Of a DNA stretch of 4,384 nt, positions 3,084 through 4,384 are shown one piece after another. Position 1 is the first letter of the stretch; each line of letters opens with the position of its first letter. Source of the DNA: a virus (lineage: Duplodnaviria; Heunggongvirae; Uroviricota; Caudoviricetes). The notes under the pieces are model-generated. The model was not told where the DNA came from. It did not search any database and worked only from the letters and a program-made list of their open reading frames with translations. The translations under genes and the position numbers were made by a program. The stretch lies in the IMG/VR virus record IMGVR_UViG_2778261418_000017; one strand, 5' to 3'.

Positions 3084-3714
3084 TACTGCTCACATCCAAA
3101 TTTTTATCCTTCGTACGCCGACGAAGAGACACCTTATTAATCTCCGCTTCGCCAGGGAGTGTGTTACCGTCAAGGGACATAAGTGGCATTGATGCTGTAG
3201 ATTGATGAGAAACCATACTAATCTGAGCACCATAGGTATTAAACCCAACAAGAGCCACCTCCCAACGAGGCAGTGTGGACTCTAATTCACCATCTCCCTC
3301 TTCGGATAAAAATGGCTCCGCTATGACTCGCCATGTAATATCTTGCTCAGCCTCAACATCACCAAACAATGAAAGCTGCTCATGCTCTACTTTATTTCGA
3401 CGCAGGCGATGTTTCTTTTTGGGGTTATTAATGCAATCTTTGGTAAATTGTAGCGGAACTTTATTTAAAGCAACTACATAGTCCAACCCCTTGGAAATCA
3501 TCTTAAGACCAGGAATTGCGCCTTCATTTTGAATAAGATGGTTTCTGACCCAATCATAAGCCCTTACACCTTCAGACCAGTTGCTGTCTAATACGTGCTT
3601 ATGATAGTACAACTGCTCAAGTACGTTAGCGATCTCCGCCAACAACTGGCGAACATTGCTTTCAGCAAGATAAGGTTGAAATTCCCAACAAGGAGCTAAC
3701 TGATTTTCATTCAT
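3064..3714 (-). CDS. Hypothetical protein, 216 aa, no recognisable family; first gene of the two-gene cassette
   Basis: Long uninterrupted ORF, antisense only to a short shadow ORF. ATG at 3714-3712, TAA at 3066-3064, overlapping the downstream HTH-ImmA start by 20 nt. Contains a basic stretch PKKKHRLRRNK (residues 98-108, plus 3391-3423) flanked by acidic segments. I recognise no catalytic motif. Confidence 0.7.
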   Translation of the reverse strand: MNENQLAPCWEFQPYLAESNVRQLLAEIANVLEQLYYHKHVLDSNWSEGVRAYDWVRNHLIQNEGAIPGLKMISKGLDYVVALNKVPLQFTKDCINNPKKKHRLRRNKVEHEQLSLFGDVEAEQDITWRVIAEPFLSEEGDGELESTLPRWEVALVGFNTYGAQISMVSHQSTASMPLMSLDGNTLPGEAEINKVSLRRRTKDKNLDVSSNGTSGE

Positions 3715-3744
3715 TTCAAGTTTCGCTTTTTTTAGAATTCGTAA

Positions 3745-3778
3745 ACCTTATATTTTCGCATTTTCCTGTTTTTGTCAA
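3745..3778 (-). promoter_or_regulatory. Putative sigma70 promoter for the two-gene cassette
   Basis: On the minus strand a perfect -35 TTGACA (plus 3773-3778) is followed by A/T-rich candidate -10 hexamers (AAATAT at 17-nt spacing, or TATAAG at 20 nt), about 40 nt upstream of the ATG at 3714. The -10 assignment is ambiguous. Confidence 0.4.
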
Positions 3779-3793
3779 CCAGACTAATGCATA

Positions 3794-3811
3794 AACCCGC
3801 CGAAGCGGGTT
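3794..3811 (-). terminator. GC-rich stem-loop (UUCG tetraloop) downstream of hok; probable terminator or 3' stabiliser
   Basis: Plus sequence aacccgc-cgaa-gcgggtt. On the minus strand this is AACCCGC-UUCG-GCGGGUU followed by UAUGCAUU, a moderately U-rich tail. It is nearly identical to the hairpin at 1961-1975. Confidence 0.5.
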
Positions 3812-3850
3812 ACGTGCGGGTGCGTTGAGGATGCCTGCCACATCAGAGGT

Positions 3851-3872
3851 GGCGAGGGATTTCTCCCTCGCC
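3851..3872 (-). other. Perfect 9-bp stem-loop immediately 3' of the hok stop (hok mRNA 3'-end structure)
   Basis: ggcgaggga-tttc-tccctcgcc is a perfect inverted repeat with a 4-nt loop, starting 8 nt after the hok stop codon. It has no T-tract, so it is more likely an mRNA 3' structural element than a terminator. Hok mRNAs are known to carry structured 3' ends. Confidence 0.5.
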
Positions 3873-3879
3873 TGGTCTC

Positions 3880-4035
3880 TTACTCCTCAGGTTCGTAAGC
3901 TGTGAAGACAGCGACCTCCGTCTGGCCGGTTCGGATTCGTACCTCGCAGAGGTCTTTCCTCGTTACCAGTGCCGTCACTATGACGGTTAAACAGATGACG
4001 ATAAGGGCGATTAACATCGCCTTTTGCTGCTTCAT
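3880..4035 (-). CDS. hokD: Hok/Gef-family small membrane toxin (type I toxin), HokD/RelF-like
   Basis: 51-aa translation MKQQKAMLIALIVICLTVIVTALVTRKDLCEVRIRTGQTEVAVFTAYEPEE matches E. coli HokD as I recall it: single transmembrane helix, conserved Cys, acidic tail. Strong Shine-Dalgarno AAGGAG lies 9 nt upstream of the ATG at 4035-4033. The ORF track shows an in-frame 19-codon upstream extension (ATG at 4092). Confidence 0.85.
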   Translation of the reverse strand: MKQQKAMLIALIVICLTVIVTALVTRKDLCEVRIRTGQTEVAVFTAYEPEE

Positions 4036-4156
4036 AGCCTGCTTCTCCTTGCCTTTCGGCACGTAAGAGGCTAACCTACATTTGTGAGACATAGATTGGG
4101 CCTCAGATTAATGTTAAGCGTCCTGCAAGACGCGTAATGTTAACTGGGGCTTTTCT

Positions 4157-4193
4157 CTATCTGCCTTTTGGTGTTCATGCCTGAGGCAGATAG
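4157..4193. promoter_or_regulatory. 9-bp perfect inverted repeat (ctatctgcc ... ggcagatag) in the hok upstream leader; candidate RNA structure or operator
   Basis: ctatctgcc at 4157-4165 is the exact reverse complement of ggcagatag at 4185-4193, with a 19-nt spacer. A second overlapping imperfect hairpin is tgaggc-agata-gcctca at 4182-4198. It sits where the hok mRNA 5' regulatory region would be. Confidence 0.3.
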
Positions 4194-4246
4194 CCTCAAG
4201 CACCCGCAGCAATTCTACTTAACTCTCCTTTTCCCGCAAACCGTTT

Positions 4247-4384
4247 TTATCCCCAGCGGCAAATCGAATACACCACCAGCGCCACCGCCATCGCAATTCC
4301 TACCGTTGTGAATGCTTCAGGCCAGGTCATCGTAAAATATCCTCCGCGTTTATCAGTCCGTTTCGCTTCAGGTAGACCATCGCC
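4247..4384 (-). CDS. Partial or small ORF ending in a hydrophobic C-terminus; possible 27-aa membrane peptide (MTWPEAFTTVGIAMAVALVVYSICRWG)
   Basis: It is the only frame open at the window end on the minus strand, with stop TAA at 4249-4247. An internal ATG at 4330-4328 is preceded by a strong Shine-Dalgarno (GGAGGA, 9-nt spacing). The frame stays open upstream to the window edge, so it may be the 3' end of a longer gene. The C-terminus is not that of RelE. Confidence 0.3.
   Translation of the reverse strand, partial: GDGLPEAKRTDKRGGYFTMTWPEAFTTVGIAMAVALVVYSICRWG

What the first reader, a model, noticed from the sequence alone, without database searches (positions are those of the whole stretch)
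3880..4250. Hok toxin gene with a structured upstream leader and no relBE immediately upstream
The Hok ORF matches HokD as I recall it. In K-12, hokD is the third gene of the relBEF operon and lacks its own mok/sok control region. Here the 350 nt upstream contain no RelE-like C-terminus in any frame. Instead there is an in-frame upstream ATG (4092), a 9-bp perfect inverted repeat (4157-4165 and 4185-4193) and further hairpins. The locus may therefore keep or have gained independent 5' regulation, such as a mok-like coupling frame or an antisense sok-like RNA. I could not identify a convincing sok promoter by eye.
Basis: partly seen in the sequence, partly recalled or inferred. Interest (0 to 1): 0.45.

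Follow-up and report, generated by a model that had tools for sequence, protein, structure and literature searches.

The report
Intact prophage hok/mok/sok toxin-antitoxin cassette
The small killer-toxin gene here, whose protein is identical to E. coli K-12 HokD, still carries the complete, well-known hok/mok/sok RNA control region that K-12 lost, so it is an ordinary member of a long-studied prophage toxin-antitoxin family.

Summary
Window 4239-3793 (minus strand) is a complete type I toxin-antitoxin cassette of the hok/mok/sok family. The toxin ORF (4035-3880) is 100% identical to K-12 HokD. The in-frame ATG at 4092 starts a 70-aa Mok frame, as in mokW and mokC. The Rfam 'sok' model matches the leader (4205-4030) at 121.7 bits against a threshold of 59. 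The predicted full-length mRNA folds with its 5' end (tac, 4205-4194) paired to a 3' element (fbi, 3830-3818). The alternative pairings of the R1 hok model are also present. The closed (full-length) and open (truncated) structures are each kept, with compensatory changes, in 50 hok loci from many enterobacteria. The cassette is about 92% identical to hokW-sokW of Stx phage 933W/Sp5, which was annotated in 1999 and shown to work in 2021. The Sok promoter (4049-4077, plus strand) is identical over the 30 nt that match a published hokW probe. No relBE lies in the window or within 5-6 kb upstream in close relatives. K-12 relBE-hokD is the derived form, with the breakpoint about 17 nt upstream of the hok ATG. 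Two genes next to hok are a Rosmer defence pair.

The parts
4234..4239 (-). Putative hok promoter -35 (TTGCGG), 16-nt spacer to the -10
   Evidence: Read from the sequence. Only 3 of 6 matches to consensus, and not called by the consensus scan. Identical in 933W.
4212..4217 (-). hok promoter -10 (TAGAAT), 6 nt upstream of the predicted hok mRNA start
   Evidence: In the hok loci examined, a -10-like hexamer (TAGAAT, TATAAT, TATGAT, TAGGAT, with weaker variants such as TAAGAT and TAGAGT) sits 6-8 nt upstream of the tac motif.
3793..4205 (-). Predicted full-length hok mRNA (about 413 nt)
   Evidence: The 5' end is placed by alignment to the hokC, hokB, R1 and hokW leaders and by position 1 of the Rfam model. 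MFE -170.6 kcal/mol, z = -7.8.
4194..4205 (-). tac (translational activator element), GGGUGCUUGAGG, at the mRNA 5' end
   Evidence: Pairs with fbi in the full-length fold. Pairs with ucb in the Rfam consensus. The motif lies 136-176 nt upstream of the hok ATG in most loci.
4177..4187 (-). Partner of tac in the predicted 5' metastable hairpin
   Evidence: Truncated folds pair 4203-4193 with 4187-4177. Inverted repeat I3, 90% complementary. The role is as described for R1 in PMC9841398.
4157..4193 (-).
   Evidence: The helix is 91.6% paired across 50 loci, with 5 pairs changed on both sides.
4144..4152 (-). ucb / anti-SD (AAGCCCCAG); pairs with the mok SD in the closed form and with tac in the open form
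   Evidence: The ucb/SD helix is 100% paired in 50 loci, with a GC to AU swap in 10 of them.
4100..4106 (-). mok Shine-Dalgarno region (CUGAGGC; GAGG at 4104-4101, 8 nt before the ATG)
   Evidence: Sequence. Sequestered by ucb in the full-length fold. Pairs with dcb in the Rfam structure.
3880..4092 (-). mok ORF (70 aa, in frame with hok, start 57 nt upstream)
   Evidence: Same layout as the annotated mokC of K-12 and mokW of 933W. PHROG 251 'MokW-like host killing', E = 8e-33.
4073..4097 (-). Target hairpin holding the mok AUG in its stem; the 7-nt loop CUCACAA is complementary to the Sok 5' end
   Evidence: The Sok 5' nucleotides GUGAG (4084-4088, +) are complementary to the loop.
4067..4071 (-). 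dcb (GCCUC); pairs with the mok SD in the open form
   Evidence: Rfam consensus alignment. The helix is 93.2% paired in 50 loci.
3880..4035 (-). hok toxin ORF (51 aa, identical to K-12 HokD); SD AAGGAGA at 4050-4044
3818..3830 (-). fbi (fold-back inhibitory element), CCUCAACGCACCC, 50 nt after the hok stop
   Evidence: 12 bp with tac plus one bulge. The same element lies about 46-57 nt after the stop in most other loci, and it beats shuffled controls clearly only in the larger groups. Helix 85.2% paired, with a UA to CG swap 26:23. It is retained in K-12 hokD, which has no tac.
3793..3811 (-). Terminator-like hairpin (AACCCGCUUCGGCGGGUUU) with a short U tract
   Evidence: Not called by the consensus scan. 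K-12 has the same hairpin with a long T run.
4049..4077 (+). Sok promoter: -35 TTGCCT (4049-4054), 17-nt spacer, -10 TAACCT (4072-4077)
   Evidence: Position matches R1 (TTGCGC, 17 nt, TATCCT) in the leader alignment. Identical to 933W. Window 4047-4076 is an exact match to probe YO-597 of PMC8621323. Not called by the consensus scan.
4084..4158 (+). Predicted Sok antisense RNA (about 71-75 nt): single-stranded 5' tail, long hairpin, CUUUUCUCU tail
   Evidence: Maps onto the annotated sokW of 933W (L007 1746-1676) and sokC of K-12; both start 8 nt inside mok. Fold -31.1 kcal/mol, z = -5.0.
4052..4053 (.). Point where homology to K-12 relE-hokD ends (about 17 nt upstream of the hok ATG)
   Evidence: Pairwise alignment. 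No tac motif and no Rfam sok hit in the K-12 Qin segment.

Best explanation
Window 4239-3793 (minus strand) is a complete and apparently intact hok/mok/sok type I toxin-antitoxin cassette of the lambdoid-prophage hokW-sokW lineage. Its toxin is identical to K-12 HokD.

Shown here: all sequence elements are present, and the predicted pairings are conserved across the family.

Inferred by homology to R1 hok/sok and to Sp5 hokW-sokW:
1. hok mRNA is made from its own promoter (-10 TAGAAT, 4217-4212), starts near 4205 and ends at the hairpin 3811-3793.
2. While the mRNA is being made, tac folds into a local hairpin.
3. The finished mRNA is locked shut by tac (4205-4194) pairing with fbi (3830-3818). 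The mok ribosome-binding site (4104-4101) is held by ucb (4150-4144), so nothing is translated.
4. Slow 3' trimming removes fbi. Then tac pairs with ucb, and the mok SD pairs with dcb (4071-4067). This displays a hairpin whose loop is recognised by the 5' end of Sok.
5. Sok (about 71-75 nt) is made constitutively from the plus strand (promoter 4049-4077, start near 4084). It base-pairs across the mok start, blocks mok translation and with it the coupled hok translation, and the duplex is degraded.
6. If Sok is lost, through loss of the element or through prophage induction as shown for hokW, Mok/Hok is made and damages the inner membrane.

K-12 relBE-hokD is a derivative in which everything upstream of about -17 was replaced.
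For: - Rfam RF01794 matches 4205-4030 at 121.7 bits (threshold 59). This is higher than the same model scores on K-12 hokC (118.3), 933W hokW (113.5), K-12 hokB (109.7) and R1-type hok (88.9). It gives no hit on K-12 relBE-hokD.
- The leader aligns with hokC, hokB, R1 and hokW.
- The cassette is about 92% identical to 933W, where mokW, hokW and sokW are annotated.
- The published hokW probe YO-597 matches exactly at 4047-4076.
- hokW-sokW was shown to be a working type I system with its own sokW promoter (PMC8621323).
- The full-length fold pairs tac with fbi and ucb with the mok SD, z = -7.8.
- The alternative tac/ucb and metastable pairings exist and match the model described in PMC9841398.
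- In 50 distinct loci the closed structure is 72% paired against 42-44% for slid partners. The tac/fbi helix is 85% paired with a compensatory UA to CG swap. The ucb/SD helix is 100% paired.
- The open structure's helix 1 is 85% paired and its SD/dcb helix 93%.
- tac-fbi complementarity sits at a fixed place after the stop codon in most loci.
- A -10 box is fixed 6-8 nt before tac.
- The Mok frame has the same layout as mokC and mokW.
- There is no relBE in the window or its relatives.
Against: - No expression data exist for this sequence.
- The simple promoter and terminator scan calls nothing in 3700-4384. The hok -35 is weak (TTGCGG), the Sok -10 is TAACCT, and the terminator has only three U.
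- MFE folds of 3'-truncated mRNA do not settle on one structure. The tac/ucb stem appears for one end point and the metastable hairpin for the others.
- The structures tested for covariation were derived from this sequence or from the Rfam model, which favours them.
- From memory (Pedersen and Gerdes 1999), and as cited in the 2025 bioRxiv survey, chromosomal hok loci tested in E. coli did not give post-segregational killing. Intact sequence therefore does not guarantee activity.
Confidence: 0.9

Rival explanations
1. The cassette is a sequence-intact but functionally silent relic, as was proposed for chromosomal hok loci. The leader is conserved only because the copy is young. Hok is never released in this host.
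For: - Decayed copies exist. L012 encodes an identical HokD but has lost tac and gives no Rfam hit.
- The chromosomal hokA, hokB and hokC loci that were tested did not mediate post-segregational killing (cited in the bioRxiv survey).
- Promoter hexamers are below the scan threshold.
Against: - Every element is intact, including both ORFs, tac/fbi and the Sok promoter.
- The nearest studied relative, hokW-sokW, has the same hok promoter and Sok promoter sequences and is active in Sp5.
- The leader occurs at 80% coverage or more in 4113 of 5426 complete E. coli genomes. That is hard to reconcile with pure decay.
Confidence: 0.07
2. hok here is expressed only as a passenger of the phage early (nin-to-Q) transcript that reads through it, much as hokD is co-transcribed with relBE in K-12. 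The 5' region is then ordinary intergenic sequence without a regulatory role.
For: - hok has the same orientation as the upstream nin-region genes and the downstream Q-side genes.
- The hok -35 is weak.
- HokW production in Sp5 depends on RecA and prophage induction. That would fit read-through adding to expression and interfering with the convergent Sok promoter; this last point is my inference.
Against: - The 5' region is not ordinary intergenic DNA. It scores 121.7 bits on a structure-aware family model.
- It shows compensatory changes across 50 loci.
- It contains a conserved -10 box at a fixed distance from tac in loci with unrelated upstream sequence.
- Read-through can add to the autonomous control but cannot replace it.
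Confidence: 0.03

Closest known systems
hokW-mokW-sokW of Stx2 phages 933W / Sakai prophage 5 (AF125520; Takada et al. 2021, PMC8621323)
   Same: - About 92% nucleotide identity from the small upstream ORF through fbi.
- Identical hok promoter region.
- Sok promoter and hok SD identical in the alignment.
- A 70-aa in-frame Mok.
- Sok of about 71 nt at the same place.
- The 18-nt extension of the Sok hairpin, relative to hokC, is shared.
   Different: - The toxin C-terminus is HokD-type (FTAYEPEE) rather than HokW-type (FVDYESEK).
- Mok codons 2-5, and therefore the Sok 5' tail, differ (MSHK vs MLNT; Sok GUGAGAC vs GUGUUCAG).
- The Sok hairpin loop differs.
- The location differs. Here the cassette lies in the nin region between the replication genes and Q. 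In 933W it lies near the right end of the deposited record, next to different genes.
- The sequence after fbi differs.
K-12 relBE-hokD (relF) in the Qin prophage
   Same: - Identical 51-aa toxin.
- Near-identical DNA from -17 through the ORF, 3' hairpin, fbi and terminator.
- Same neighbours on the downstream side in other strains (rem, ydfU/DUF968, and Q).
   Different: K-12 has relE ending 71 nt upstream. It has no tac, ucb, mok start, target hairpin, Sok -10 or Sok RNA. The K-12 junction occurs in 1167 of 5426 genomes. The leader, counting related hok paralogues, occurs in 4113 of 5426.
K-12 hokC (gef)/mokC/sokC
   Same: - Leader alignable throughout.
- Same tac sequence.
- In-frame Mok starting 57 nt upstream.
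- Sok starts 8 nt inside mok.
- Hok is 82% identical.
   Different: In K-12, hokC is followed closely by IS186 and has lost its fbi. Its Sok hairpin is 18 nt shorter. The sokC -10 region differs.
hok/mok/sok (parB) of plasmid R1, the reference system
   Same: - Same order of elements: tac, metastable partner, ucb, mok SD, target hairpin, dcb, hok SD, hok, fbi.
- Sok promoter at the same place with the same 17-nt spacing.
- Same Rfam family.
   Different: - Hok is only 41% identical.
- R1 mok is out of frame with hok, whereas here it is in frame (read from the alignment).
- tac is GGCGC... rather than GGGUGC..., with matching changes in fbi.
- The 5' hairpin is longer in R1.
- R1 is plasmid-borne.

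Membership tests
hok/mok/sok type I toxin-antitoxin loci | Small hydrophobic Hok/Gef toxin ORF | tested here: met
   Pfam PF01848, E = 3e-23, 81.6 bits against a cut-off of 22. 100% identical to HokD.
hok/mok/sok type I toxin-antitoxin loci | mok reading frame that starts in the leader, has its own SD and overlaps hok | tested here: met
   ATG at 4092, with GAGG 8 nt upstream, giving a 70-aa ORF. Same layout as the annotated mokC and mokW. Translational coupling itself was not tested.
hok/mok/sok type I toxin-antitoxin loci | Leader RNA matching the family covariance model | tested here: met
   RF01794: 121.7 bits against a gathering score of 59, full model length. Positive controls hokC, hokB, hokW and R1 score 89-118 bits. 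The K-12 hokD region gives no hit.
hok/mok/sok type I toxin-antitoxin loci | Long-range tac/fbi pairing of the mRNA 5' and 3' ends | tested here: met
   12 bp in the MFE of 4205-3793. Conserved position in most loci and compensatory changes across them. This is prediction only, with no probing.
hok/mok/sok type I toxin-antitoxin loci | Alternative pairings: ucb/mok-SD (closed), tac/ucb plus SD/dcb (open), and the 5' metastable hairpin | tested here: met
   All four complementarities are present. Paired fractions in 50 loci: ucb/SD 100%, helix 1 of the open form 85%, SD/dcb 93%. Which fold forms after 3' trimming was inconclusive by MFE.
hok/mok/sok type I toxin-antitoxin loci | Antisense Sok gene with its own promoter and terminator, complementary to the mok translation start | tested here: met
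   The promoter-like hexamers at 4049-4077 are identical to those of sokW. The predicted RNA has a free 5' tail, a long hairpin and a U-rich end. It maps onto the annotated sokW and sokC. The consensus scan does not call the promoter.
hok/mok/sok type I toxin-antitoxin loci | Sok RNA is made, represses Hok, and its loss kills or arrests the cell | not testable with these tools
   Shown for the 92%-identical hokW-sokW (PMC8621323), not for this sequence.
relBEF operon (K-12 arrangement of hokD) | relB and relE immediately upstream of hokD on one transcript | tested here: not met
   tblastn with RelE and RelB finds no hit in the window or in 5-6 kb upstream in relatives. L013 and L018 serve as positive controls.

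The most novel reading that the evidence does not exclude
Among nearly identical prophage hokD/hokW cassettes, sequence differences cluster in the Sok 5' tail and the target-hairpin loop (mok codons 2-5; window 4105-4076). This clustering could reflect selection for distinct Sok/hok specificities, so that the up to 10 copies in one genome do not cross-protect each other. The window's Sok (5' GUGAGAC) would then define a specificity group different from sokW and sokC (5' GUGUUCAG).
Probability: 0.15. Interest if true: 0.4.

Novelty: already known. Interest (0 to 1): 0.12.

Why it matters
Its value is mainly as an annotation point. RefSeq labels this gene 'hokD' and annotates neither mok nor Sok. 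In every listed row, the 198-nt leader had no annotated feature under the match, and it occurs in 4113 of 5426 complete E. coli genomes. A reader who knows only K-12 could take these loci for the unregulated, relBE-linked hokD. They are in fact self-contained type I toxin-antitoxin cassettes of the hokW-sokW kind, and K-12 is the exception. The result also shows the cassette directly next to a Rosmer defence pair in a variable part of a lambdoid prophage. No new mechanism or family is implied.

Tried and rejected
- Promoter and terminator scan of 3700-4384: no hits. The promoters and terminator rest on homology, not on consensus strength.
- Folding 3'-truncated mRNAs to see the closed-to-open switch: the MFE alternates between the tac/ucb stem and the metastable hairpin depending on the end point. 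This is recorded as inconclusive.
- 'Gained' regulation: rejected. The leader is homologous to all other family members, and K-12 still carries an orphan fbi.
- relE further upstream: not seen in four close relatives with 4-6 kb of upstream sequence. The window's own source was not found in the complete-genome collection (best place 93% of the window at 95.3% identity; the leader alone is 99% identical to strain cq9), so this could not be checked on the actual contig.
- Specificity diversification of Sok: variability around the mok start (0.23-0.38) is no higher than in other hairpin loops (0.40-0.43). The 933W tail is identical to that of K-12 hokC. It is therefore kept only as a low-probability reading.
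- The small 27-aa ORF as part of the hok cassette: rejected. Most hok loci lack it, and the segment occurs without hok in other phages.
- Other Rfam hits in the window (ceN48, SNORD93, rsmX): all far below their gathering scores and taken as chance.

Full report
**What is in the window.** All long ORFs lie on the minus strand. Read in the direction of transcription, from high to low coordinates, they are:

- the end of a nin-region gene (stop at 4327);
- a 27-aa ORF (4330-4247);
- hok (4035-3880);
- a 216-aa protein (3714-3064);
- a 367-aa HTH plus M78-peptidase protein (3083-1980);
- a Rem-like ORF (within 1958-1599);
- a DUF968/YdfU protein (1597-539);
- RusA (538-173).

Similar DNA is found in lambdoid phages and prophages. 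In the closest E. coli relatives this stretch lies between the replication and nin genes and the Q antiterminator.

**Checking the observation.**
- The Hok ORF is 100% identical to K-12 HokD and matches Pfam HOK_GEF.
- The ATG at 4092 is in frame and gives a 70-aa ORF.
- The inverted repeat at 4157-4165 / 4185-4193 exists and is 10 bp perfect. It is embedded in a longer imperfect repeat, 4146-4166 / 4184-4204, and a second repeat lies at 4178-4187 / 4193-4202.
- tblastn with K-12 RelE and RelB finds nothing in the window.

**What the upstream region is.** Rfam's 'sok' model (RF01794) matches 4205-4030 over its full length at 121.7 bits, against a gathering score of 59, with E = 2e-28. The match is on the hok-sense strand and runs to the hok AUG, so the model in fact describes the hok mRNA leader. 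As controls, the same model hits K-12 hokC (118.3 bits), 933W hokW (113.5), K-12 hokB (109.7) and an R1-type plasmid hok (88.9), always on the hok strand. It finds nothing in the K-12 relBE-hokD segment. The leader aligns base by base with the hokC and hokB leaders and with R1.

**Nearest described relative.** Phage 933W (AF125520) annotates mokW (70 aa, in frame), hokW and a 71-nt antisense sokW. The window is about 92% identical to it from 4330 to the fbi element at 3818. The hok promoter region is identical, and so is the stretch carrying the Sok promoter and the hok SD. Takada et al. 2021 (PMC8621323) studied the same locus in Sakai prophage 5 and showed the following:

- HokW is toxic.
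- sokW, expressed from its own promoter, counteracts it, and mutating the sokW -10 abolishes protection.
- RNase III and Hfq contribute to repression.
- On mitomycin C induction, sokW RNA disappears.
- HokW then accumulates in the inner membrane in a RecA-dependent way.
- Phage yield is about two-fold higher with the locus than without it.

Their hokW probe YO-597 matches the window exactly at 4047-4076.

**Anatomy.** All coordinates were verified.

| Element | Coordinates | Sequence or note |
|---|---|---|
| hok promoter -35 | 4239-4234 (-) | TTGCGG, weak |
| hok promoter -10 | 4217-4212 (-) | TAGAAT |
| mRNA start | about 4205 (-) | |
| tac | 4205-4194 (-) | |
| metastable partner of tac | 4187-4177 (-) | |
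| ucb | 4152-4144 (-) | |
| mok SD | 4104-4101 (-) | GAGG |
| mok ATG | 4092 (-) | |
| target hairpin | 4097-4073 (-) | loop CUCACAA |
| dcb | 4071-4067 (-) | |
| hok SD | 4050-4044 (-) | |
| hok ORF | 4035-3880 (-) | |
| fbi | 3830-3818 (-) | |
| terminator-like hairpin | 3811-3793 (-) | |
| Sok promoter -35 | 4049-4054 (+) | TTGCCT |
| Sok promoter spacer | 4055-4071 (+) | 17 nt |
| Sok promoter -10 | 4072-4077 (+) | TAACCT |
| Sok RNA | about 4084 to 4154-4158 (+) | maps onto annotated sokW and sokC |

The predicted Sok folds with a free 5' tail, a long hairpin and a U-rich end (-31.1 kcal/mol, z = -5.0). Its first five bases are complementary to the loop of the target hairpin. That loop contains a YUNR-type CUCA. 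The role of such loops in fast antisense recognition is from my own knowledge of Franch et al. 1999 and was not tested here.

**Structure tests.** The predicted full-length mRNA (4205-3793) has an MFE of -170.6 kcal/mol, z = -7.8. In that fold, tac pairs with fbi (12 bp, one bulge) and ucb pairs with the mok SD. This is the closed, untranslatable form described for R1 in PMC9841398. Truncated versions fold either with the tac/ucb stem, which is the open form and also the Rfam consensus, or with the tac metastable hairpin, depending on the chosen end. The alternatives exist, but MFE alone does not show the switch.

For comparative evidence I fetched 77 hok loci from one genome per species.
- A tac motif lies 136-176 nt upstream of hok in most of them.
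- In most loci the best tac partner lies about 46-57 nt after the stop codon, with matching changes between lineages. The duplex beats all 100 shuffled controls clearly only in the larger groups. The lineage pairs are GGGUGC/GCACCC, GGCGC/GCGCC and GGGUGCC/GGCACCC.

On an alignment of 50 distinct loci, the results were as follows.

| Structure or helix | Cells paired | Note |
|---|---|---|
| Closed structure, all pairs | 72.2% | 42-44% when partners are slid; covariation score 0.182 vs 0.095 or less |
| tac/fbi helix | 85.2% | one position split UA 26 / CG 23 |
| ucb/SD helix | 100% | GC to AU swap in 10 loci |
| Open (Rfam) structure, all pairs | 68.1% | 40-47% when partners are slid |
| Open form, helix 1: tac/ucb plus 5' hairpin | 84.7% | |
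| SD/dcb helix | 93.2% | |

The structures were derived from this sequence or from the Rfam model. That biases the paired fraction upward but does not create the compensatory swaps.

A -10-like hexamer sits 6-8 nt upstream of tac in loci whose upstream sequences are otherwise unrelated. This supports an autonomous hok promoter.

**Relation to K-12.** Homology between the window and K-12 relE-hokD starts only about 17 nt upstream of the hok ATG (about window 4052) and then continues through the ORF, fbi and the terminator hairpin. K-12 therefore keeps an orphan fbi but has no tac and no family-model hit. Because the leader is shared with hokC, hokB and plasmid hok, the leader-bearing form is ancestral and the K-12 form is derived. 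This agrees with my recollection of Pedersen and Gerdes 1999, who described hokD as inactivated by a rearrangement; that paper was not available in the library.

Among complete E. coli genomes:
- The K-12 junction is present at 80% coverage or more in 1167 of 5426.
- The 198-nt leader is present in 4113 of 5426, with up to 10 places per genome. This count includes related hok paralogues at 80-90% identity.
- No listed row has any feature annotated under the leader.

In close relatives there is no relBE within 4-6 kb upstream, only small nin-region ORFs. Some copies are decayed. L012 encodes an identical HokD but has lost tac and the Rfam hit.

**Mechanism and role.** The most likely mechanism is the R1/hokW one given under best explanation. 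The sequence elements and their conservation are shown here. Transcription, processing, Sok action and toxicity are inferred from the homologues.

For biological role there are three candidates: prophage retention, help with lysis on induction (as shown for hokW), and exclusion of other phages (reported for R1 hok/sok, as cited). None can be decided here.

Because hok is co-oriented with early rightward transcription in this prophage, read-through on induction could add hok-sense RNA and interfere with the convergent Sok promoter. That would fit the loss of sokW RNA after induction, but it is my inference.

**Verdict.** The finding is real and its interpretation is supported, but it describes a known system. 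hokW/mokW/sokW have been annotated since the 933W genome and were characterised in 2021, and a recent survey reports that hok loci are enriched in prophages. Novelty: already known. Interest: low.

Noticed in passing
window 3714-1980 (minus strand): The two overlapping genes directly downstream of hok match the PADLOC models of the Rosmer anti-phage system. RmrT is 216 aa (3714-3064, E = 3.5e-25). RmrA is 367 aa with HTH and M78 peptidase domains (3083-1980, E = 3.7e-105). The pair is inserted between hok and rem. K-12 and many phages have no such insert there.
   Followed up: partly
window 4330-4247 (minus strand): An unannotated 27-aa hydrophobic ORF (MTWPEAFTTVGIAMAVALVVYSICRWG). Its ATG overlaps the stop of the upstream gene (ATGA). 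It is conserved in strain cq9, strain HH97, 933W and pPE4, where it sits behind two different upstream genes with the same ATGA overlap. Other hok loci lack it. The segment also occurs without hok in other phages, under 'hypothetical protein' or 'EaA protein' annotations. It has no Pfam or PHROG match.
   Followed up: partly
window 4205-4030; loci L003, L004, L007, L009: Rfam RF01794 is called 'sok antitoxin', yet all its matches lie on the hok-sense strand, are about 150-176 nt long and end at the hok AUG. The model therefore describes the hok mRNA leader rather than the roughly 70-nt antisense Sok. Annotation pipelines that use it would place 'sok' on the wrong strand.
   Followed up: partly
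E. coli complete genomes: RefSeq annotates only a 'hokD' CDS at these loci. Neither mok nor Sok is annotated, and every listed match to the 198-nt leader has no feature under it, although the leader occurs in 4113 of 5426 genomes.
   Followed up: yes
window 3793-3800, compared with L001 (K-12): The terminator hairpin after fbi is followed by only three T here (GGGTTTATGC), against a long T run in K-12 (GGGTTTTTGTTTTTATTTT). Homology breaks right at this point, where the Rosmer insert begins. A perfect TTGACA lies at 3777-3772 (minus strand), ahead of rmrT. hok transcription may therefore read into rmrT.
   Followed up: no
window 4105-4076; alignment A5: Within ten hokD/hokW-type cassettes that are otherwise nearly identical, differences cluster around the mok start, which is also the Sok 5' tail (mean pairwise difference 0.23-0.38). 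The level is similar to that in other hairpin loops (0.40-0.43). The window has MSHK where 933W has MLNT, and the 933W tail equals that of K-12 hokC.
   Followed up: partly
window 3900-3897 (minus strand): Tyr46 of Hok is encoded by UAC followed by G (UACG). The bioRxiv Hok survey states that hokC, hokD and hokE mRNAs are A-to-I edited by TadA at codon 46, recoding Tyr to Cys. The motif is intact here. Editing was not tested.
   Followed up: no
L012 (E. coli ECMA0423, CP178302.1): A third state of the locus: an identical HokD ORF with a decayed leader. tac is lost, several indels are present, there is no Rfam hit, and there is no relBE.
   Followed up: partly
L008 (PP818812.1); L019, L028, L034, L039-L041, L073 (genome contigs): A record named 'Actinobacillus phage vB_Apl-pPE4' is 97% identical to this E. 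coli prophage region. Its gene order matches that of E. coli strain cq9. Identical hokD or R1-type hok also appear on contigs labelled Veillonella, Acinetobacter, Xanthomonas, Streptomyces, Ferruginibacter, Oscillibacter and Vagococcus. These are most likely wrong host assignments or contamination.
   Followed up: no
window 1958-1599 (minus strand): The 119-aa ORF listed from a TTG start matches the Rem-like PHROG 1212 only over residues 54-119. Relatives annotate a 273-279-nt gene here. The real gene is probably much shorter than the mechanical ORF.
   Followed up: no
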